A DNA stretch of 63,035 bases, filler included. It is 5 parts of 5 records of this genome, joined end to end, with 100 filler letters (N's around TTAATTAATTAA, not from the genome) between each part and the next. Parts side by side here need not be neighbours in the genome. Positions count along the whole stretch, not along the records: positions 57,257 to 63,035 come from DRR723986_7018; 4 more parts are not named here. One strand, given 5' to 3'. A model generated the notes under the pieces. That model was not told the origin of the DNA and did not search any database. It was given only the letters and a program-made list of their open reading frames with translations. This document shows positions 6,535 to 62,805 of the stretch, one piece after another (the first letter of the stretch is position 1; the number at the start of each line of letters is the position of its first letter). The position numbers were made by a program, and so were the translations under genes.

Positions 6535-7548
6535 TCACTCTGCTTTGCGATGCATTGGCCAGGCCCTGAATTCAAAGGGCACGCGCCCCTCGGTGCGATC
6601 ACTGCGCGGCGGCAATCCAAAGCGATCCCGATAAGCGCGGCTAAAATGCACTTGGCTGGAAAAGCCCGAGGCCACCGCGACCTCTGCCAGTGGCAGCTCT
6701 GTCTGGGTTACCAATCCACGGGCCCGATCCAGTCGGATATCACGATAATAAAGCACCGGCGTTTTGTTCACGTAGCGGGTGAACAGACGGTTCAGTTGTC
6801 GTTGCGACAATCCGATGGCATCGCAAATCGTAGGGATCGCAAGCGGCACCTCTAGGTGTGCCTCCATCAAAGCGATGGCTTGTTTCACAACATCCGGGGC
6901 ACGTTGGCCGACGGGCTCAACCAACTGCGGGTTTTGACGTGCCCCAACAGGTCGCACATAGTCATGAAAGATATACCGCGCCGCCGCGTTGGCCAGACCA
7001 TCGCCATGGGTGCCCCGAATGATGTGCAGTGCAAAATCGGCAACTGCAGCGCCGCCGCAACAGGTCATTCGATTGCCATCAAACACACACAGCTCTTCGG
7101 TTGTTTCGACTTGGGGATAGAGTTCCTGCATCGCGTCTATGTGTTCATAGTGGACGGTCGCCCTGCGCCCGTTGAGCATCCCCGCCTCTGCGAGAATGAA
7201 CGCCCCGGTGTCTAATGCCCCGACCGTGCTGCCTTGGCGTGCCCATTTCCACAGCGCGGCATGCAGGGGGGTCGTATTGTGGGCCTCGGGCGTCCAACTG
7301 GCCGACAGGACCACAAAATCTGCCGCAGTGTCTGCAACATCCGCAAGGGCCACAGTTGCAAGGCTCAGCCCGTTGCTGGCCCTGCATTGCCCCCCCGATT
7401 GCGAGGTGATTTCCCACTGAAAATGGGCGCGCCCGTCCAAATAGTTGGCTGCCCGAAGCGGGTCCAAAAACCCAACTGTAGCGGCCATATTGAAATTCGG
7501 CGTGACCAAGAGCAGCAGCCGGATTGTTTTCTGATCGTCGCGCGTCAT
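6535..7548 (-). CDS. GlxA-family AraC regulator (GbdR/CdhR-like)
   Basis: DJ-1/amidotransferase-like N-domain (LDTGAFILAEAG) plus C-terminal double HTH (GFSSQVHFSRAY). Confidence 0.92.
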   Translation of the reverse strand: MTRDDQKTIRLLLLVTPNFNMAATVGFLDPLRAANYLDGRAHFQWEITSQSGGQCRASNGLSLATVALADVADTAADFVVLSASWTPEAHNTTPLHAALWKWARQGSTVGALDTGAFILAEAGMLNGRRATVHYEHIDAMQELYPQVETTEELCVFDGNRMTCCGGAAVADFALHIIRGTHGDGLANAAARYIFHDYVRPVGARQNPQLVEPVGQRAPDVVKQAIALMEAHLEVPLAIPTICDAIGLSQRQLNRLFTRYVNKTPVLYYRDIRLDRARGLVTQTELPLAEVAVASGFSSQVHFSRAYRDRFGLPPRSDRTEGRVPFEFRAWPMHRKAE

Positions 7549-7909: not shown

Positions 7910-8009
7910 NNNNNNNNNNNNNNNNNNNNNNNNNNNNNNNNNNNNNNNNNNNNTTAATTAATTAANNNNNNNNNNNNNNNNNNNNNNNNNNNNNNNNNNN
8001 NNNNNNNNN
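7910..8009. other. Artificial contig spacer
   Basis: N runs flanking TTAATTAATTAA (stops in all six frames), 100 nt. Confidence 0.99.
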
Positions 8010-16541: not shown

Positions 16542-16641
16542 NNNNNNNNNNNNNNNNNNNNNNNNNNNNNNNNNNNNNNNNNNNNTTAATTAATTAANNN
16601 NNNNNNNNNNNNNNNNNNNNNNNNNNNNNNNNNNNNNNNNN
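16542..16641. other. Artificial contig spacer
   Basis: N runs flanking TTAATTAATTAA. Confidence 0.99.
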
Positions 16642-28533: not shown

Positions 28534-28633
28534 NNNNNNNNNNNNNNNNNNNNNNNNNNNNNNNNNNNNNNNNNNNNTTAATTAATTAANNNNNNNNNNN
28601 NNNNNNNNNNNNNNNNNNNNNNNNNNNNNNNNN
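28534..28633. other. Artificial contig spacer
   Basis: N runs flanking TTAATTAATTAA. Confidence 0.99.
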
Positions 28634-39777: not shown

Positions 39778-40686
39778 ATGTCTTCGAGCCAGCGTTTCGG
39801 TTTCCTTGTCGGCCTGACGGCCTATTTCATCTGGGGCAGCCTGCCGCTGTACATCCGGGCGATGCGTCATGTCCTGCCGCAGGAATTGCTGGCGCACCGG
39901 GTCATCTGGTCCGTGCCGACTGCGGTGGTGCTGATCGCGCTGGCCGGGAACTGGCGCGATATCTGCGTCGCTTTCCAGCGGCATACGGCCAAATGGCTGC
40001 TGCTTTCCGGCCTGATCATCGGGCTGAACTGGGGCGTCTATATCTCGGCTGTGAATGCCGACCGGACGATCGAGGCCTCGCTTGGCTATTTCATCAATCC
40101 GCTGGTGAGCGTGCTGTTCGGCATGGTGTTTTTTGCCGAGAAGCTGCGCCCGGCCCAATGGGCGTCGGTCGGAATTGCGGCGGTGGGCGTTGGCGTTGTG
40201 ACGTTCGCTTACGGGCATGTGCCGTGGATTGCCCTGTTCCTCTGCATGAGTTTTGCGTCCTATGGCGTTATCCGGAAGAAGGTCGCGGTCGACAGCCGGG
40301 CAGGGTTCCTGATGGAAGTCGTCGTGCTTGTCCCTCTGGCGGTCGGCTGGCTCGCCTGGTTCGTGCAGCAGCCGGACGGCCGGCCGATGGGACTGGGCGG
40401 TTGGGACATTCCGCTGCTGATGGCGGCGGGTCCGATCACGGCCTTCCCGCTGATCCTGTTCGCCCTGGCGGCCAAGCGCCTCAAACTGTCGACCATCGGC
40501 ATGATGCAATATATCGGGCCGAGCATTCAATTCCTGATCGCGGTGTTCATTTTCCGGGAGCCGTTCGGCATGACGCTGGCCATCGCATTCGGCTTTATCT
40601 GGCTGGCGCTGGCCGTGTTCACCGTCGATTCCATGGTGGGCGAGGCAAAGGCCCGGCGGCTTGCCCGCGCGGCGCGGCCTGTCTGA
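39778..40686 (+). CDS. rarD: RarD EamA-family permease
   Basis: HRVIWS, EASLGYFINPL, YGVIRK, QYIGP. Confidence 0.92.
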   Translation: MSSSQRFGFLVGLTAYFIWGSLPLYIRAMRHVLPQELLAHRVIWSVPTAVVLIALAGNWRDICVAFQRHTAKWLLLSGLIIGLNWGVYISAVNADRTIEASLGYFINPLVSVLFGMVFFAEKLRPAQWASVGIAAVGVGVVTFAYGHVPWIALFLCMSFASYGVIRKKVAVDSRAGFLMEVVVLVPLAVGWLAWFVQQPDGRPMGLGGWDIPLLMAAGPITAFPLILFALAAKRLKLSTIGMMQYIGPSIQFLIAVFIFREPFGMTLAIAFGFIWLALAVFTVDSMVGEAKARRLARAARPV

Positions 40687-40694
40687 TTTCCGGA

Positions 40695-40797
40695 GAAAAA
40701 TGCCCCGGCGCCAAGGGGAGTGGCACCGGGGCGTGTCAGTTTCTGACAGATAGAGATGGGAGTCCTATCTGAGGCCGTATTCTGCAATAAATACGCC
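40695..40797 (-). ncRNA. Candidate small RNA with two C-rich anti-SD loops, ending in an intrinsic terminator
   Basis: Minus-strand hairpins with loops CUCCCA (40747-40771) and CUCCCCU (40702-40732), followed by a U5 tract. Confidence 0.55.
40696..40732 (-). terminator. Rho-independent terminator
   Basis: 12-bp GC-rich stem (one G-U on the minus strand) followed by UUUUU. Confidence 0.8.
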
Positions 40798-40819
40798 AGA
40801 TCTCGAGACACAGGACGGT

Positions 40820-41437
40820 TCAGGCACGTGAGGTGGACATCGCGATCCAGAGCGCCACGATAGCGAGCGCGAGGCCAAAACAAATCCGCGCAGCGAACGA
40901 GGTCCGCCACTTTTCCAGAATCCCGCCGAGATGGTCCGCGACCAGAACGATGGTCACATGGACAATCAGCGAGAGGAGGATGTGCAGGCTGCCGAGCGTG
41001 AGGATCTGCAGCCAGAGATGCCCGAGCCGTGGATCGGCGAACTGGCCAACGACCAGAAGGTAGAAGACCAGCGCCTTGGGGTTCAGCAAATTGGCGATCA
41101 GGCCGCGCCGGAATCCGGCCAGCTTGTTTGCCATGGCGGGCGGCGCCGAGCCGTCATCGCTGAACGCTTCCCAGGCGAGGTAGAGCATGAAGGCCACGCC
41201 GCCCCAGCGCAGCGCCTCGTAAAGTGTAATCGAACCGGCGAGCAGGGCGGATAGGCCCGTCGCCGCGGCCAGCAGCTGGATGGCAAGCCCGAGCGTAATC
41301 CCCGCCACCGCCTTCATGCCATGCTCGCGGCCTGCGCGCGCCGACAGGGTGGCGAGCCAGCCCATGTTCGGGCCGGGCGTCAGTTCCACCGCCAGCATGG
41401 CAACGATGAAGGCAGGCCAGTCGAGCGAGACGAACAT
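40820..41437 (-). CDS. LysE/RhtB-family translocator
   Basis: TPGPN, YLAW, NLLNPKA. Confidence 0.93.
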   Translation of the reverse strand: MFVSLDWPAFIVAMLAVELTPGPNMGWLATLSARAGREHGMKAVAGITLGLAIQLLAAATGLSALLAGSITLYEALRWGGVAFMLYLAWEAFSDDGSAPPAMANKLAGFRRGLIANLLNPKALVFYLLVVGQFADPRLGHLWLQILTLGSLHILLSLIVHVTIVLVADHLGGILEKWRTSFAARICFGLALAIVALWIAMSTSRA

Positions 41438-57156: not shown

Positions 57157-57256
57157 NNNNNNNNNNNNNNNNNNNNNNNNNNNNNNNNNNNNNNNNNNNN
57201 TTAATTAATTAANNNNNNNNNNNNNNNNNNNNNNNNNNNNNNNNNNNNNNNNNNNN
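57157..57256. other. Artificial contig spacer
   Basis: N runs flanking TTAATTAATTAA. Confidence 0.99.
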
Positions 57257-57261
57257 TTACG

Positions 57262-57286
57262 GCTCACAGCCCTAAGGGCTGTGAGC
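57262..57286. repeat. Perfect 11-bp inverted repeat GCTCACAGCCC-TAA-GGGCTGTGAGC (REP-like)
   Basis: Read directly; sits at the contig edge. Confidence 0.75.
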
Positions 57287-57329
57287 TTGGAATCAACGGG
57301 TCTTTGAGAATTCAGCCTTCAGAATTTCA

Positions 57330-57665
57330 GTTTCACCGTGAGCAATTTCAGGTTTTTGGGCCTCAAATTCTGAGAATCTTGGGCTGCCAGTCTCGACTGC
57401 AATCGTCGGATTTGCGGCTGAAAGTCTCACCGGGTTTGCACAAACCGGCGGCTGGCAGGATCTCTGGATTCAGAGCTGTCTAGAGGCCTAAAGATTCAAG
57501 GCAGTTCGCGTGAAGTCACTCCGGATGTTGTTTAGTGGGCGGTATTGGGTGTTGAATGCCTGGAAATTGAGACGCTGAGTTTTCAACACTAGCTGTTAGC
57601 CACAAGCTAACAGCTCACCAGATTTTCAGTCTTTCAACCCGCCTTCCAACCCCAATTCACCGCTC
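57330..57665 (+). ncRNA. Candidate structured non-coding RNA: two long rod-like stems, one capped by a four-way junction
   Basis: Nested helices traced by hand with many G-U pairs on the + strand; no ORF of 60 aa or more. Confidence 0.5.
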
Positions 57666-57927
57666 CCCCCCCCAGCCAAATTCCCCCAAGTCTCCAACCA
57701 CCACGTGACCAATCCAGCGCTCAGTGCTTATACTCATCAGGCCTGCAACCTTTCTCAACGTCTATGGCCGCCAGTTTTTGCCAAAATCGTGAAACCTCGC
57801 AGCCAACAGCCGTGTTTGACTCTAATAATTGGCGCTCCCGCCGCACAATGTGTTGCGCCTGCCCACGTTGTCCAGAAGAGGCCGCAGTGATTCTTTTACT
57901 CAATTATTTGCAGACGCGGAGCCAAGC

Positions 57928-59670
57928 GTGACCGAACATCGCAAAACCGCCTTTCACATTCAACCATACATCCTCGGATCCCTGAGTGTAATCCTGCTCG
58001 CTTTTGCCGGCATCGCCAATGCGCATGCCGATGAAAGCCGAGATTCGCTCTACTACGAAGTCAACAAATCCCTGATGGTCTTCGGCGACCTCTTCCGTCA
58101 GGTAAACAGCAACTACGTTGATGACGTCGAAACCGAAGAAATGCTGCGGCATGGCCTCGACGGCATGCTCAACTACCTCGATCCCTATACCAACTACATC
58201 ACAAATGATGAAAGTGATCAGGTTGACATGCTGACAAAAGGTTTCTACGGCGGCCTGGGAGTCACAATCTCGGACGTTGATGGCGAAACTACCGTCGTGG
58301 ACCTGGCACAGGGATTTGCGGCCGACAAAGCGGGAATTCGCATCGGCGATAAGATTTACAAAATCGACTCCACCGTAGTTCTGAACGCCGATCACAAAGA
58401 GTTACGCCAGTACACGCGCGGCAAAGCCGGAAGTAAACTGACGGCCTGGATCATTCGCGAAGGCCGCCAGGACACGCTTCGCTTCGATCTCAAACGCCAA
58501 AAAATTACCATGCGCATGGTCTCACATGCGGGATTTGTGCGTGGCGAAGATGGATCGCCGCAGAGCAGCGACATCGCCTATATCAAGCTCGATCGTTTTG
58601 CGCGCGGTGCCAACAACCAGTTTCGCCGGGCCCTTGATGACCTCAAGCGCGAAAAACCGCTTAAAGGTTTGATCATCGACCTGCGTGGCAACCCCGGCGG
58701 TCTGCTTGACGCCGCCGTTTCAATCAGCGAAATATTTGTGCCTACCGGCAGCCCCGTCGTTTCTACACGCGGACGCTCGCCGCTGGCCGGCAAGGAATAC
58801 ATCGCCCGCGGAATTCCCAAAGCGCCCAACGTGCCCATCGTGGTGCTGATTAATAACGGCAGCGCCAGCGCCAGCGAAATTCTCGCAGCGGCTATCCAAG
58901 ACCTGGACCGTGGTGTCCTCGTCGGCGAACGGTCTTTTGGTAAAGGCCTCGTGCAGACCATTTCTTCATTGCCATTCGAAGCCACGCTCAAAATGACAAC
59001 CGCGCGTTACTACACGCCTTCCGGTCGTTGCATTCAGCGCATCAAGTACGAAGAACGCCGCGAGCATGCCGCCGATGATGAGTATTGGGATGAATCACAT
59101 GTGGACAGCAGCAAAGTTTTCTATACCTCAGGGCGTCGCCCGGTCTATGAAGCTAATGGCATTCATCCCGACGTAACTGTTAGTAGCACGCCCGTCTCCG
59201 ACTATGTTCAGAGCCTCCTTGACCAGAACATGCTCTTCCGCTTCGGTACCCGCTACAGCTCCAAGTTCGAAGACCTTCCCGAGGACTTCAAGATCGATAA
59301 ATCGGTACTGCAAGACTTTGGCAAATTCCTCGAAGACCAGGAGTTTGTCCACGATCAAAAAGTCGTTGACGCTCTCGAAACTCTGCAGCAACGCTTCGCT
59401 TCCAATCAAGATTTCAGCGCCTTTGCACCGCGTATGCAGACGCTCCGTCAGGATCTTACAGCCATGCGTGCCTCACTCCTCGAACGTCATGCCGACGAAG
59501 TCCTTCAGGAACTCGAACGCGAGATTGTGGCCCGTTTTATGCCGCGTTCCGAGCGAATTGCTTCTGGCCTCGATACTGACCGTCAGGTACAGACCGCAGT
59601 TGAAATCCTGCGCGATCAATCGCGCTACAGTAAAATTCTCAACCTGAGCGTTGCCGACGGGGATCAGTAA
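57928..59670 (+). CDS. S41 C-terminal processing protease (CtpA/Prc-like) with PDZ domain
   Basis: Signal peptide, LDPYT, GGLG, DLRGNPGG, SASASEI, GKGLVQ; GTG start after GGAG. Confidence 0.94.
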   Translation: MTEHRKTAFHIQPYILGSLSVILLAFAGIANAHADESRDSLYYEVNKSLMVFGDLFRQVNSNYVDDVETEEMLRHGLDGMLNYLDPYTNYITNDESDQVDMLTKGFYGGLGVTISDVDGETTVVDLAQGFAADKAGIRIGDKIYKIDSTVVLNADHKELRQYTRGKAGSKLTAWIIREGRQDTLRFDLKRQKITMRMVSHAGFVRGEDGSPQSSDIAYIKLDRFARGANNQFRRALDDLKREKPLKGLIIDLRGNPGGLLDAAVSISEIFVPTGSPVVSTRGRSPLAGKEYIARGIPKAPNVPIVVLINNGSASASEILAAAIQDLDRGVLVGERSFGKGLVQTISSLPFEATLKMTTARYYTPSGRCIQRIKYEERREHAADDEYWDESHVDSSKVFYTSGRRPVYEANGIHPDVTVSSTPVSDYVQSLLDQNMLFRFGTRYSSKFEDLPEDFKIDKSVLQDFGKFLEDQEFVHDQKVVDALETLQQRFASNQDFSAFAPRMQTLRQDLTAMRASLLERHADEVLQELEREIVARFMPRSERIASGLDTDRQVQTAVEILRDQSRYSKILNLSVADGDQ

Positions 59671-59676
59671 AGCTGC

Positions 59677-61056
59677 ATGCAATTTGAGCTGATGATGCTG
59701 GGTGGCGCCGAAGAAATTGGCGCCAACTCATGCTTCCTGAGTTTTAACGGTGTTGGCGTAATAGTCGACGCCGGGCTGCACCCCAAGCTGCGCGACGCCC
59801 GGGCTTTACCTGCCTACGGCGCAATTTCCGAGCGTAAAGTATCTGCAATTCTGATAACGCATGCGCACACCGATCACCTTGGCGCGCTGCCCTTTGCAAT
59901 GCATCACCAACCGCAGATGGCCGTGTTTATGACGCGTGCTACGCGCGACCTAAGCGAAATAATGCTGCGCAATTCCTCACGCCTCCTGCGCACCGAAGTC
60001 GCCGACGAATTTCCCAAAGAAGCGCTCGCCCTCTATAAACCCGAAATTGTTCGCAACCTGAGTGTCCTGATTCAGGGCATGCGTTTTGATGAAGAATTCA
60101 CACTTGCCGGCAAAACAGGCGAGGGTGGTGGCCACGATATCCGCGTTCGTTTTTGCCATGCCGGTCACATTCTGGGGGCCGCTGCAATCTCCTTTGAAGT
60201 CGCCGGTCGCCGGATTGTCTACAGCGGCGATGTCCACTTTCAGTCGCAGGAACTGGTTGCCGGTGCCAACCTGCCACGCGGTCATGCCGATGTGCTCGTA
60301 CTCGAATCTACTAACGGTGCCCAAACCGAACCTAACGATCCCCAGGCCGAAAAACGGCGCCTTGCGGAGATAATCAACACTGCCAGCAACAACAACGGCT
60401 CCGTCCTGATTCCCGCCTTTGCTTTGGGCAAAACCCAGGAAATGCTCAAGCGCCTGCACGAGATGATGCACGCCGGTATGATTCCCCGTCTGCCGATTTA
60501 TTCAGGCGGTCTTAGCAGCAAAATCAACATCGTCTATGATCGCCATTGTTACTCTGTGCCACGCGTTGACCCAGGTTTTGAGATGACGGATATCGAGCAT
60601 TATCCCATCGACTACAAATCGCTCATGAACGGTCCCTACTTTAAGCATCCTTCGATTGTTGTGGCCACCAGTGGAATGCTGAACCCCGGCACCACGGCCT
60701 ATAAACTGTCGCAGTCCTGGATGCAGAAACCCAATTACGCGATAGCCTTTGCGGGTTATCTGGACCCTGACTCTGCGGGATATGCGCTTGCCAACTCAGA
60801 GCCGGGCAAGGATTTTATGCTCGCCGGACATAAAACCAGACGCGTCTGCCGTGTGGAGCAGCTGCGTTTTTCGGCACATGCCAATCGCGAGGATTTGATC
60901 GATTACGTCTGGGATGTGCGTCCCAAACATCTCTTTCTGATGCATGGTGACGTGGAGGCCTGCGAATCGATGGGTGCCGCTGTCAAAGCGCGTCTGCCCG
61001 ACTGCCGTATTCGAATTCCGTCACTGACTCGCCCATATTCGCTCGATCTTTCGTAA
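59677..61056 (+). CDS. Metallo-beta-lactamase/beta-CASP ribonuclease
   Basis: THAHTDH, AGHILG, SGD, EST, FSAH, HGD. Confidence 0.92.
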   Translation: MQFELMMLGGAEEIGANSCFLSFNGVGVIVDAGLHPKLRDARALPAYGAISERKVSAILITHAHTDHLGALPFAMHHQPQMAVFMTRATRDLSEIMLRNSSRLLRTEVADEFPKEALALYKPEIVRNLSVLIQGMRFDEEFTLAGKTGEGGGHDIRVRFCHAGHILGAAAISFEVAGRRIVYSGDVHFQSQELVAGANLPRGHADVLVLESTNGAQTEPNDPQAEKRRLAEIINTASNNNGSVLIPAFALGKTQEMLKRLHEMMHAGMIPRLPIYSGGLSSKINIVYDRHCYSVPRVDPGFEMTDIEHYPIDYKSLMNGPYFKHPSIVVATSGMLNPGTTAYKLSQSWMQKPNYAIAFAGYLDPDSAGYALANSEPGKDFMLAGHKTRRVCRVEQLRFSAHANREDLIDYVWDVRPKHLFLMHGDVEACESMGAAVKARLPDCRIRIPSLTRPYSLDLS

Positions 61057-61143: not shown

Positions 61144-61884
61144 ATGAGCCGCGACACAAATTACCGCACAGTTTTATACGCCAACTACACCGAAGCCTGG
61201 GCCAAGTGGGACTCTCCGGACGATCTCTATGACTGGCTCGAACAGAGTTCCAAAGCACTTGCCAATGAATTTGTTCCGATGTTGCCGGCTGATAAAAACT
61301 GTAGTATCCTCGATGTAGGCTGCGGTTATGGTCCGCTGCTTTACGCACTTAAACAACGCGGTTACGAAAATTTCACCGGAATCGATGGTAGTGCCGTCCA
61401 GGTCGAACTGGCGCACAAAATTGGTCTGCCAAGTGTTAAACATGTTGACGCGCTCGAATTTATCAATTCGTCCAAACAGCACTACGACGTAATCTTCGGC
61501 GTTGATCTCATCGAACACTTCGATAGAAATGAATTGATCGAACTTCTGCAGGCCATGCGTAGTATTCTACGTCCTGGTGGTAAGTTAATTCTGCGTACAC
61601 CCAACGTTGATGCGCCCATGGGCAAAGTTCACTCCTTTGGCGATTTAACACATGAGCTTCACTTAAACAAACTCTCCGCTCTGGAGTTGTTTAAATGCCT
61701 GCATTTTAATGAAGTTGAGGTCTTACCGTCTCCAGTGCATGCTCATAGTCCTGGACGCGAGCTTTTGCGCTCTGTAATTTGGGGGCTTTTGCAGCCGGTT
61801 CTTAAGGCAATGGTATTCACCAGTGGTATCCGTCAACGCGATGTGATTTTAACTCCGAACATGGTCATTCGCGCCGGACGTTAA
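61144..61884 (+). CDS. Class I SAM-dependent methyltransferase
   Basis: ILDVGCGYG, LIEH, LRPGG..ILRTPN. Confidence 0.92.
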   Translation: MSRDTNYRTVLYANYTEAWAKWDSPDDLYDWLEQSSKALANEFVPMLPADKNCSILDVGCGYGPLLYALKQRGYENFTGIDGSAVQVELAHKIGLPSVKHVDALEFINSSKQHYDVIFGVDLIEHFDRNELIELLQAMRSILRPGGKLILRTPNVDAPMGKVHSFGDLTHELHLNKLSALELFKCLHFNEVEVLPSPVHAHSPGRELLRSVIWGLLQPVLKAMVFTSGIRQRDVILTPNMVIRAGR

Positions 61885-62418
61885 CTTCTTGTTTTACGGT
61901 TCTTGCACTCTCCAATGTTTTGTGCTTGCCAGTCTGGACTCACAGTATTTAGGCTTTTAACTTTTCCGATTCTGAACAAGAGCGCTCGCGCCCCCTGCAT
62001 TGGCATTTGGTGGCTAGCTTTTTTTCTTTTTGTTAGTTTGTGTTGCACTCACCACGAGACGTCGAAATAACTCAAGGGCATTGATTCAGGTGGCTTAAAA
62101 TAGAGTTGTTTGCGAACAGCAAAACTGGCATAAAACCTAAGTAATTCAGAGATCAACTGTGACTGGAAATCTAACCATGCTGCATACGCGCACCAGGCAC
62201 AAATAGCCGAAATTACCGCCAAATCAGCATTTTGCTCGTCTGTGCAGCTATGTGAATTGCGCATCTGAAATGTCAACCCGCCGCTTATCGTAGCTTTATC
62301 AACAAAGTAGCTGAACGTAAATTTGTCTCCATAGCGAACTGCTGACAGTTGATGTTTTAGAACAACTGTTAACACCGAGTAAAACACTTGGCAACATTCA
62401 TTTTGGAGGGTAAATCTC

Positions 62419-62805
62419 ATGCAAGAAACACAACACACCTGGACATTCGAGGAATTTGTAGAGGAGCAAACAACAGAAGTTATGGCGAAAATCCGGGAGT
62501 ACATGAATGAAAAATTGTCAGCCGGACAGCGGCAGACGGCAAAAGTTGCTTTGAGTGATATTAAAGGCAGACCGGCACGTGGAGTCCTGTTCTATCAGAC
62601 GAATGTGAATGTGATATATGGGGGAAGGGCACAAGGCCTCGTATTCGTTGAGAAGTTCGAATCCATGGAATATGGTGTGATTTTTCCCCAAGTCCGGAGT
62701 TATTTAAACGGACTGGATATATGCCTGGCTCAAAATTCGCAGGTTGTACTTGCAGACAGACGCGATGGTGAAATCTCGTGTTTTGTGCTTCATCCTGCCG
62801 GCTGA
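62419..62805 (+). CDS. Hypothetical protein (ORFan)
   Basis: GGAGG RBS, 128 aa, followed by a hairpin. Confidence 0.65.
   Translation: MQETQHTWTFEEFVEEQTTEVMAKIREYMNEKLSAGQRQTAKVALSDIKGRPARGVLFYQTNVNVIYGGRAQGLVFVEKFESMEYGVIFPQVRSYLNGLDICLAQNSQVVLADRRDGEISCFVLHPAG

What the first reader, a model, noticed from the sequence alone, without database searches (positions are those of the whole stretch)
57262..57665. ~410-nt ORF-free, densely base-paired region: candidate large structured ncRNA
Seen (hand-folded): a perfect 11-bp hairpin at 57262-57286. Rod 1 (57330-57516) has stacked helices 57330-343/57504-516, 57351-364/57483-496 (14 bp, 4 G-U), 57368-379/57466-475 and 57384-392/57450-458, capped by three small hairpins (57393-409, 57413-429, 57430-448) forming a cloverleaf-like four-way junction. 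Rod 2 (57537-57665) has 57537-543/57659-665, 57544-549/57651-656, 57567-579/57625-637 and a perfect 10-bp apical stem 57591-600/57606-615. GTGTTGAA (57549-556)/TTCAACAC (57582-589) is a mutually exclusive alternative pairing. Most non-Watson-Crick pairs are G-U on the + strand, arguing for selection on single-stranded + structure. I see no tRNA, tmRNA, RNase P or SRP signature; rod 1 is 6S-sized but lacks an obvious large central bubble. Inference: an undescribed ncRNA, an rRNA-operon trailer, or a folded ssDNA/MITE element. The contig break beside it suggests a repeat.
Basis: partly seen in the sequence, partly recalled or inferred. Interest (0 to 1): 0.75.

Follow-up and report, generated by a model that had tools for sequence, protein, structure and literature searches.

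The report
Palindromic repeats in an intergenic spacer
The supposed large structured RNA is better read as a non-coding spacer at a contig end that holds two hairpins of a lineage-specific repeat family, one long imperfect palindrome, and one weaker RNA-only fold of ordinary strength for this window, so it is fairly ordinary.

Summary
The region splits into three unlike parts.

1. The hairpin at 57262-57286 lies 5 nt from a real contig start. It shares its core with a palindrome found at 105 sites in one related genome and 37 in another, and in 0 of the 59 other relatives searched. Contigs of that relative also end at this palindrome.

2. Rod 2 (57537-57665) is a DNA-level imperfect palindrome that folds on both strands, as RNA or as DNA. 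Its apex is a compensated variant of the same repeat.

3. Rod 1 (57330-57516) folds only as plus-strand RNA, with 15 G-U among 67 pairs. Its z of about -3.6 to -3.8 ranks only 66th of 599 local folds in the window.

No Rfam family matches. BLAST and covariance-model searches found no homolog in the two closest genomes. BLAST found none in 61 relatives, plasmids or phages, and an exact 23-nt pattern from rod 2 found none in viral contigs. The equivalent spacer in the closest relatives is shorter and unstructured. No promoter or terminator frames the rods.

Best reading: a mosaic of palindromic repeats upstream of a conserved S41-protease promoter. A lineage-specific RNA is not excluded.

The parts
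57157..57256 (.). Artificial joiner (N-run, TTAATTAATTAA, N-run) between two unrelated contigs. The finding's contig starts at 57257.
   Evidence: five segments with GC 0.57, 0.63, 0.69, 0.62 and 0.515..
57262..57286 (.). Perfect 11-bp palindromic hairpin (GCTCACAGCCC-TAA-GGGCTGTGAGC), 5 nt from the contig start. It is a variant of a repeated palindrome family of the nearest genomes.
   Evidence: -22.3 kcal/mol duplex. z -6.4 / -6.2 on the two strands. 22-nt matches of 91-95% at 3 sites in G001. Family counts. This exact arm order was found in 0 of 61 relatives.
57330..57516 (+). Rod 1: a G/U-rich fold that is stable only as plus-strand RNA. The outer stems are well defined; the interior is ambiguous.
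   Evidence: RNA z -3.57 (+) and -1.06 (-). As DNA, z -1.10 and -1.25. Outer-arm duplex z -5.48 (+) and -2.25 (-). 15 G-U of 67 pairs. Ensemble diversity 36. Rank 66 of 599.
57537..57665 (.). Rod 2: a 129-nt imperfect inverted repeat at DNA level, forming a well-defined rod on both strands.
   Evidence: RNA z -6.45 / -3.90. DNA z -4.56 / -4.21. Arms without the apex: z -3.50 (+) and -1.65 (-). Ensemble diversity 9.4. The rod-2 model also hits the minus strand at E 7.8e-4. Ranks 7 (+) and 27 (-) of 599.
57591..57615 (.). Apex of rod 2: a perfect 10-bp hairpin. Its arm with flank, TAGCTGTTAGCC, differs at 1 of 12 positions from TAGCTGTGAGCC of the repeat family, and the change is compensated in the other arm.
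   Evidence: 3 of the 6 window matches to GCTGTGAGCC (1 mismatch allowed) lie in this finding. The comparison was made by eye. This exact variant is not in G001 or G002.
57618..57641 (+). A 24-mer (CCAGATTTTCAGTCTTTCAACCCG) that is 92% identical to a single-copy site beside a family-like motif in G001, with an orthologous copy in G002. Meaning unknown.
57616..57700 (+). G-poor, C-rich tract that includes a run of 9 C (57665-57673). It is partly the 3' arm of rod 2.
   Evidence: Sequence. GC skew -0.36 for 57600-57999. k-mer list.
57705..57734 (+). Sigma-70-type promoter-like site of the S41 protease operon (GTGACC, 18 nt, TATACT), conserved in the two closest relatives.
   Evidence: 1 site found, 0.4 expected. 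Alignment.
57829..59670 (+). S41 peptidase gene with a PDZ domain. The likely real start is the GTG at 57928, preceded by GGAG. It is followed by a beta-CASP metallo-hydrolase gene (59677-61056) and a methyltransferase gene (61144-61884).
   Evidence: The same gene order is seen in L001 and L002. The start is inferred from the conserved block and from matches that begin at residues 23-30.

Best explanation
The region is a non-coding spacer between an unknown upstream neighbour, lost at the contig break, and the conserved promoter and leader of an S41-protease operon. It is a mosaic of palindromic DNA, not one RNA gene.

- Hairpin 57262-57286 and the apex of rod 2 (57591-57615) are variants of a short repeated palindrome. 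That palindrome is abundant only in the clade closest to this contig.
- Rod 2 as a whole is a 129-nt DNA-level inverted repeat built around such a hairpin, comparable to a small non-autonomous element or a BIME-like cluster.
- Rod 1 is G/U-rich spacer whose RNA fold is no stronger than many other places in the window.

Shown: the palindromes, their kinship with the repeat family, the assembly break at the repeat, and the absence of this spacer content at the orthologous site in relatives.

Inferred: the palindromes arrived by insertion or duplication. If transcribed from upstream, they fold into hairpins that stop or insulate read-through before the protease promoter. The C-rich, G-poor tract that follows may act as a Rho loading site.
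For: - Contig end. The region starts 5 nt inside a real contig. In G001 the family palindrome lies 35 nt from both ends of contig C2, 35 nt from the start of C3 and 53 nt from the start of C1 (contig length).
- Family. The 25-nt palindrome GCTGTGAGCCC-TNA-GGGCTCACAGC (2 mismatches allowed) is at 105 sites in G001 and 37 in G002. It is in 0 of the other 59 relatives, and the reversed-pattern control gives 0. G001 and G002 are also the closest genomes by the S41 protein, at 70-71% identity, with the next at 56% among 201 genomes of the order.
- Kinship of hp1. 22-nt matches of 91-95% at three G001 sites, best E 0.029.
- Clustering. 3 of the 6 window matches to the 10-mer arm fall inside this finding. 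By my arithmetic's chance mean of 6.99 for 63 kb, about 0.05 would be expected in 450 nt.
- Compensated variants. Copies with both arms changed are common in G002, for example GTTGTG...CACAAC and GCTGCG...CGCAGC. The rod-2 apex shows the same pattern.
- Rod 2 folds equally well on both strands and with DNA parameters.
- Repeat pairs 95-134 nt apart occur in relatives.
- In the orthologous spacer of L001 and L002, about 280 nt separate the upstream gene's terminator from the S41 ORF. That spacer shows no similarity to the rods and no unusual fold, with z -0.85 and -0.80. From about 57700 onward the promoter and leader do align.
- No Rfam family matches, and no promoter or terminator frames the rods.
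Against: - The copy number of hp1, rod 1 and rod 2 in the organism's own genome is unknown, because no genome is held.
- The exact hp1 arm order was found in 0 of 61 relatives, and the exact apex variant in 0 of 2.
- Rods 1 and 2 have no copy anywhere that I could search, so their status as repeats is inferred from form alone.
- I saw no target-site duplication beside either rod, reading by eye.
- No Y1 (RAYT-type) transposase was found in G001 or G002.
- Rod 1 is clearly strand-specific and RNA-specific. A decaying DNA palindrome does not predict that.
- The hairpins are not followed by a T-run, so a terminator role is unproven.
Confidence: 0.5

Rival explanations
1. Rod 1, alone or together with rod 2, is a lineage-specific structured non-coding RNA transcribed from the plus strand. 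It could be an independent small RNA or a structured 3' trailer of the upstream gene.
For: - Rod 1 folds well only as plus-strand RNA: z -3.57 against -1.06. Its outer arms give z -5.48, with 0 of 500 shuffles as good, against -2.25 on the minus strand. As DNA it is not significant.
- It has 15 G-U pairs, against 3 A-C oppositions in symmetric loops.
- There is no ORF of 60 aa or more, and the short ORFs have no Pfam match.
- The rod-2 arms without the apex also pair better on + (z -3.50 against -1.65).
Against: - No Rfam match, even at E<=10.
- No promoter-like or terminator-like site around the rods.
- Single-sequence covariance models of both rods find nothing at E<=1 in G001 or G002. The same models recover their own sequence in the window.
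- The same spacer in relatives is unstructured.
- The interior of rod 1 is ill-defined.
- 65 other local folds in the window score at least as well, and 1.5% of random windows reach z <= -3.5.
- 22% G-U pairs is what a G/U-rich stretch gives cheaply.
Confidence: 0.2
2. The hairpins work together as a transcription barrier. They terminate or insulate read-through from the upstream gene, through hairpins followed by a C-rich, G-poor Rho-loading tract, and so protect the S41 operon promoter. On this reading the structure is selected at RNA level but is not a free-standing RNA gene.
For: - The position is immediately upstream of a conserved promoter.
- In relatives the same position holds a canonical terminator of the upstream gene.
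- In about half of the 17 oriented G001 copies, the family hairpin is followed by a T-rich stretch. This is my by-eye reading.
- The tract from about 57616 onward is strongly C over G, with GC skew -0.36 for 57600-57999.
Against: - No canonical intrinsic terminator was found in 57257-58000.
- Part of the C-rich tract is paired within rod 2.
- The orientation and identity of the upstream gene are unknown.
- No expression data could be obtained.
Confidence: 0.2
3. The region is a single-stranded-DNA-active site: an end of an IS200/IS605-type element, an integron attC-like site, or a single-strand origin of a mobile replicon.
For: - Hairpins at DNA level (hp1 and rod 2) fold with DNA parameters.
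- The location at a contig break and the absence from the orthologous locus in relatives.
Against: - No Y1 transposase in the related genomes.
- No similarity to plasmids or phages, and an exact 23-nt pattern from rod 2 has no match in viral contigs.
- The flanking genes are housekeeping-type and syntenic with relatives.
- I saw no attC R'/R'' core sites, reading by eye against a recalled consensus.
- Rod 1 is not significant as ssDNA.
Confidence: 0.05

Closest known systems
REP / BIME elements of enterobacteria and pseudomonads (repetitive extragenic palindromes and their mosaic clusters)
   Same: Short, GC-rich, near-perfect palindromes in intergenic DNA. They occur at about a hundred copies per genome in the related genomes, and some lie in pairs 95-134 nt apart. 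Copies with compensated arm changes are seen. They sit downstream of genes, and several occur within one spacer, as here.
   Different: No RAYT / Y1 transposase was found in the two related genomes. The window's copies lack an adjacent GTAG (the GTAG rule is recalled). Copy number in the window's own genome is unknown. The family has its own 19-nt flank, TACGTAAAACTACGTAGGA, in G001, and that flank is not present in the window.
REPINs (two inverted REPs with a spacer, mobilised by RAYTs; abstracts of PMC3337134 and PMC3116915 seen in the listing)
   Same: Rod 2 is a hairpin-forming inverted repeat of about 130 nt, of a size typical for such non-autonomous elements.
   Different: Rod 2 is not built from two REP copies. 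It carries one REP-like hairpin at its apex. No RAYT was found, and no second copy of rod 2 was found anywhere searched.
Bacterial MITEs that fold into rods when transcribed (Correia/NEMIS, ERIC, RUP, BOX; recalled, not read here)
   Same: An imperfect inverted repeat of 100-200 nt in an intergenic spacer, absent from the orthologous site of relatives, and folding on both strands.
   Different: No target-site duplication was seen, no copies were found, and no parent IS is known.
6S RNA (Rfam RF00013)
   Same: Rod 1 is about 185 nt long and largely rod-like.
   Different: No match to the family, even at E<=10. There is no large central bubble; instead there is a branched, ill-defined interior. 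No promoter or terminator was found.

Membership tests
REP (repetitive extragenic palindrome) | Short (about 20-40 nt) imperfect palindrome in extragenic DNA | tested here: met
   hp1 is a 25-nt palindrome with 11 Watson-Crick pairs. The rod-2 apex is a 25-nt palindrome with 10 pairs. Both lie outside ORFs of 60 aa or more.
REP (repetitive extragenic palindrome) | Many copies in the same genome | tested here: inconclusive
   The own genome is not held, and no further copy lies in the 5.8-kb contig. The related palindrome has 105 sites in G001 and 37 in G002, and none in the 59 other relatives. The window's exact arm order was found in 0 of 61 relatives.
REP (repetitive extragenic palindrome) | Conserved GTAG-type tetranucleotide next to the palindrome (feature recalled from the REP/RAYT literature, not read here) | tested here: not met
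   The G001 copies carry ...ACGTAGGA or ...GTA directly before the hairpin. The window's hp1 is preceded by TTACG and the apex by CACT.
REP/REPIN-RAYT system | A RAYT (Y1 transposase, Pfam PF01797) in the genome | tested here: not met
   0 of 2 related genomes (G001, G002) have a match, while the control rings in 6 of 14 known genomes. The own genome is not testable.
REPIN | [quoted passage not shown] | tested here: not met
   Rod 2 has one REP-like hairpin at its apex, and its arms are unrelated to the REP. hp1 and the apex lie 329 nt apart and do not pair with each other in the MFE.
MITE | Terminal inverted repeats, flanking target-site duplication, multiple copies | tested here: inconclusive
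   Inverted arms are present for rod 2. No direct repeat flanks either rod (by eye). Copy number is not testable, and no copies were found in any collection searched.
Any Rfam 15 family (6S, tmRNA, RNase P, SRP, introns, riboswitches, large ncRNAs) | Covariance-model score at or near the family's gathering threshold | tested here: not met
   0 matches at gathering score in the whole window. At E<=10 over 57258-57950, only two eukaryotic lncRNA models matched, at 16.5 and 11.9 bits against thresholds of 80 and 70. No tRNA or tmRNA was found.
Intrinsic terminator | GC-rich hairpin followed directly by a T-run | tested here: not met
   0 terminator-like sites in 57257-58000 on either strand. hp1 is followed by TTGGAATC and the apex by CACCAGATTTTC.
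Conserved structured ncRNA (general criterion) | Homologs with covarying base pairs | not testable with these tools
   No homolog could be found to align.

The most novel reading that the evidence does not exclude
Rod 1 (57330-57516, plus strand) is a genuine, so far undescribed, G-U-rich structured RNA of an uncultured lineage. It would be transcribed next to hairpins of the repeat family, which serve as its processing or termination signals. The shared 24-mer beside a family-like motif in G001 and G002 would mark a conserved functional module rather than a chance match.
Probability: 0.15. Interest if true: 0.55.

Novelty: new member of a known kind. Interest (0 to 1): 0.25.

Why it matters
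For the scan, the lesson is practical. A dense hand-fold at a contig end can be made of repeat hairpins plus a G/U-rich stretch, and a z-score near -3.6 is not rare in 63 kb.

For biology, the modest gain is a previously unreported, clade-restricted family of extragenic palindromes in an uncultured lineage. It has about 100 copies in one genome, copies with compensated arm changes, and no RAYT detected. It breaks assemblies and may mark gene boundaries.

If rod 1 were a real RNA it would be a new orphan family. Nothing here makes that testable without new data.

Tried and rejected
- Own-genome copy count: no genome is held.
- Public sequencing runs: none was listed and no RNA holder was listed, so no reads could be laid.
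- Earlier findings of this scan: nothing on record.
- Metagenome scan with the S41 protein: 7 loci, best 38% identity, so no close relative.
- Genome scan with the S41 protein: 6 loci, two at 69-70%. A search of 201 genomes of the order found none closer than 71%.
- BLAST of the region against L001-L006: only short hits with E>=12. Against G001 and G002: only the hairpin and the 24-mer. Against 61 relatives: one 24-nt hit at E 0.009, taken as chance. Against plasmids and phages: no match. A viral-contig scan with a 23-nt pattern: 0.
- Covariance models built from the single window sequence, entered twice in the alignment: rod 2 (R1) and rod 1 (R2) found nothing at E<=1 in G001 or G002. Single-sequence models are weak, so this is only mild evidence.
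- Internal motif arrays or iterons: only TTTCAG, TCACCG and AGTCTC occur 3 times each, and there are no long internal repeats beyond the hairpins. Rejected as an iteron array.
- Protein coding: the two short ORFs have no Pfam match.
- rRNA trailer, tRNA and tmRNA: rejected.
- A sigma-54-like TGGCACG seen by eye near several G001 and G002 repeat copies lacks a -12 GC at the right spacing in the copies I read. Not pursued.
- Literature: the 11-mers of the palindrome occur only in unrelated eukaryote papers, 23 papers of which 8 were listed. Supplements are closed and were not seen.

Full report
**Setting.** The 63,035-nt window is not one molecule. It is five contigs joined by runs of N around TTAATTAATTAA, with GC contents of 0.57, 0.63, 0.69, 0.62 and 0.515. 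The finding lies at the very start of the last contig (57257-63035). No whole genome is held for the window. Downstream on the plus strand lie three genes: an S41 peptidase with a PDZ domain (ORF 57829-59670), a beta-CASP metallo-hydrolase (59677-61056) and a class I methyltransferase (61144-61884). The same three genes in the same order occur in two metagenome-assembled genomes, G001 (locus L001) and G002 (L002), at 69-71% protein identity. These are the closest genomes I could reach. The next best of 201 genomes sampled from their order is at 56%, and the metagenome collection gave nothing above 38%.

**Check of the observation.** The minimum-free-energy fold reproduces the first hairpin, the outer stems of rod 1 and the whole of rod 2. 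The interior of rod 1 is different. The region has no ORF of 60 aa or more. Two short ORFs (59 and 45 aa) have no Pfam match.

**Is the fold more than chance?**
- The 423-nt stretch folds at -157.6 kcal/mol on the plus strand (z -4.71) and -152.8 on the minus strand (z -3.32).
- Split up, with 200 shuffles each: first hairpin z -6.4 / -6.2; rod 1 z -3.57 / -1.06; rod 2 z -6.45 / -3.90; the region without the first hairpin only -2.58 / -2.09; the linker and the downstream 160 nt about 0.
- Pairing of the arms alone: z -5.48 (+) and -2.25 (-) for the outer stems of rod 1; z -3.50 (+) and -1.65 (-) for rod 2 without its apex.
- With DNA parameters, rod 1 is not significant on either strand (z -1.10 and -1.25), while rod 2 is significant on both (z -4.56 and -4.21).
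- Control 1: of 454 strand-windows of 190 nt sampled across the window, 7 (1.5%) reach z <= -3.5 (mean -0.26, sd 1.19).
- Control 2: an RNALfold scan with SVM z-scores over all five contigs and both strands gives 599 non-overlapping local folds with z <= -2. Rod 2 ranks 7th (27th on the minus strand) and rod 1 ranks 66th. The top-ranked fold lies between the two longest convergent ORFs there, which I read as an ordinary terminator site.

So the first hairpin and rod 2 are real palindromes. Rod 1 is a strand-specific, RNA-only fold of ordinary strength for a region picked out of 63 kb.

**The first hairpin belongs to a repeat family.**
- BLAST of the region against G001 gave 22-nt matches of 91-95% to the first hairpin at three sites. 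This led to a palindrome, GCTGTGAGCCC-TNA-GGGCTCACAGC.
- With up to two mismatches, that palindrome occurs at 105 sites in G001 and 37 in G002. It occurs in none of the 59 other relatives searched, and the reversed pattern gives 0 (a 16-nt version gave 119+117 and 36+39 strand matches).
- In 20 G001 copies read with flanks, the core is constant. 17 of them carry a conserved 19-nt flank, TACGTAAAACTACGTAGGA, on one side or both.
- A second flank type (GTTATGTTACGAAA..GTA) occurs in the copies of loci L007, L009, L013 and L026.
- Many G002 copies differ from the consensus in both arms at mirrored positions, so the hairpin is kept.
- The family sits 35 nt from both ends of G001 contig C2, 35 nt from the start of C3 and 53 nt from the start of C1 (contig length). 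Assemblies therefore break at it, as the window's contig does.

The window's hairpin keeps the family's centre (AGCCC-TNA-GGGCT) and outer GC, but has the three middle pairs flipped. That exact form was found in 0 of 61 relatives. A 22-nt half-match including the flanking CGT occurs at 3 G001 sites.

The apex of rod 2, with its flank (TAGCTGTTAGCC...), differs at one of twelve positions from the family's TAGCTGTGAGCC, and the change is compensated in the other arm. This comparison was made by eye. Three of the six window matches to the 10-mer arm lie in this finding. The exact apex variant is not in G001 or G002. No Y1/RAYT transposase was detected in G001 or G002, while the control search rang in 6 of 14 known genomes.

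**The rest has no relatives.**
- Rfam gives nothing at gathering score in the whole window. At E<=10 it gives only two eukaryotic lncRNA models far below threshold. There are no tRNA or tmRNA genes.
- The rods have no similarity in L001-L006, G001 and G002, 61 relatives, plasmids and phages or viral contigs (one 23-nt pattern).
- Covariance models built from the single sequence of each rod recover themselves in the window but find nothing at E<=1 in G001 or G002.
- One short exception: the 24-mer at 57618-57641 is 92% identical to a single-copy site in G001, with an orthologous, slightly different copy in G002. In both genomes it lies a few tens of nt from a family-like motif. I cannot explain it.

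**The locus in relatives.** In L001 and L002 the gene upstream of the S41 gene is a 477-aa plus-strand ORF that ends in a canonical hairpin-plus-T-run terminator. About 280 nt separate it from the S41 ORF. From window position about 57700 onward the three sequences align. The alignment covers a sigma-70-type promoter-like site (57705-57734), several leader blocks, and a GGAG-N7-GTG that is probably the true start (57928). Upstream of 57700 there is no similarity, and the relatives' spacers fold no better than shuffles (z -0.85 and -0.80). The structured stretch therefore lies upstream of the operon's promoter, is not its 5' leader, and is not a conserved feature of this locus.

**Interpretation.** The best-supported reading (confidence about 0.5) is a mosaic of palindromic DNA in a spacer. 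It has two hairpins of a clade-restricted extragenic palindrome family, one of them at the tip of a 129-nt DNA-level inverted repeat, plus a G/U-rich stretch whose RNA fold is not exceptional.
- How it works is inferred, not shown. The palindromes probably arrived by insertion or duplication. If transcribed from upstream, they would fold into hairpins that hinder read-through toward the protease promoter, and the C-rich, G-poor tract from about 57616 onward (GC skew -0.36 for 57600-57999) could load Rho.
- Against this reading, the rods have no second copy anywhere searched, there is no target-site duplication, no transposase partner is known, and rod 1's plus-strand, RNA-only stability is not what a decaying DNA palindrome predicts.
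- The main rival (about 0.2) is a lineage-specific plus-strand RNA comprising rod 1. It rests on that asymmetry and on 15 G-U pairs against 3 A-C oppositions. It lacks a promoter, a terminator, homologs and a well-defined fold.
- A functional barrier without a free RNA (about 0.2) and an ssDNA-active site (about 0.05) remain possible.

**Comparison with known kinds.** The hairpins work like REP elements and the cluster like a BIME. Rod 2 resembles a small MITE or REPIN in form. Membership in the REP/REPIN-RAYT system is not established. The palindrome criterion is met, copy number is untestable for this genome, and the GTAG rule (recalled) and the RAYT criterion are not met where tested. 6S RNA is a size resemblance only. 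I found no paper that mentions the palindrome: the two 11-mers occur only in unrelated eukaryote papers. The REP/REPIN features come from the abstracts shown in the listing, and paper supplements could not be seen.

**Verdict.** It is a new member of a known kind, extragenic palindromic repeats, with low to moderate interest (0.25). The most novel reading still open is that rod 1 is a real orphan RNA (probability about 0.15).

Noticed in passing
G001 and G002 genome-wide; e.g. L025-L044, L045-L048: A clade-restricted palindrome family, GCTGTGAGCCC-TNA-GGGCTCACAGC. It has 105 sites in G001 and 37 in G002, and none in 59 other relatives. In G001 it usually carries a 19-nt flank, TACGTAAAACTACGTAGGA. 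Some copies lie in direct pairs 95-134 nt apart, many G002 copies have mirrored (compensated) arm changes, and it lies at contig ends. No Y1 transposase was found.
   Followed up: partly
window 61975-62045; L001 about 7005-7050; L002 about 6990-7035; also L007, L009, L029, L033, L035, L043, L044: A second shared motif family, (GAGCGCTTCGCC)...GGCTTGCTTTTTTCTTTTGTTCGTC. It lies downstream of the methyltransferase gene in the window and at the orthologous place in L001 and L002, and recurs near other gene ends in G001: 11 distinct copies among the loci fetched. Individual copies fold as a hairpin that ends in the T-run, so it looks like a terminator with an unusually conserved 3' half.
   Followed up: partly
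window 57618-57641; L013 1496-1524; L016 about 1496-1520: A 24-mer, CCAnATTTTCAnTCTTTCAACCCG, is shared between the window and a single-copy intergenic site in G001 and G002. In each case it lies a few tens of nt from a palindrome-family motif, but in a different gene context. Unexplained.
   Followed up: partly
window 57700-57930: The S41 operon has a conserved promoter-like site and a leader of about 190 nt with conserved blocks (CGYGAAACC, CCGTGTT, CACAATG, CGTTGTC). The likely start is the GTG at 57928 after GGAG, not the TTG at 57829 that opens the ORF.
   Followed up: partly
window 57665-57673: A run of 9 C inside a strongly C-over-G tract just upstream of the promoter. Such a tract is prone to slippage.
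   Followed up: no
window 1-63035: The window is a chain of five contigs with GC from 0.515 to 0.689, joined by N/TTAATTAATTAA spacers at 7910-8009, 16542-16641, 28534-28633 and 57157-57256. The contigs probably come from different organisms, so neighbours across a spacer are not linked.
   Followed up: yes
window 40674-40828: The strongest local fold of the whole window (z -6.68, minus strand) lies between the two longest ORFs there, which converge (39778-40686 on +, 40820-41437 on -). It looks like an ordinary bidirectional terminator.
   Followed up: partly
window 61885-62805: A low-GC stretch (0.42-0.47) follows the methyltransferase gene. Its two overlapping ORFs on opposite strands (151 aa and 128 aa) have no Pfam match. 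It may be foreign DNA.
   Followed up: no
L027, L039, L043, L044, L045, L047, L048 (G001 and G002): By eye, many palindrome copies have TGGCA(C/T)G about 12-15 nt from the hairpin (seen as CGTGCCAAAAA on the other strand). This resembles a sigma-54 -24 box, but has no clear -12 GC.
   Followed up: no
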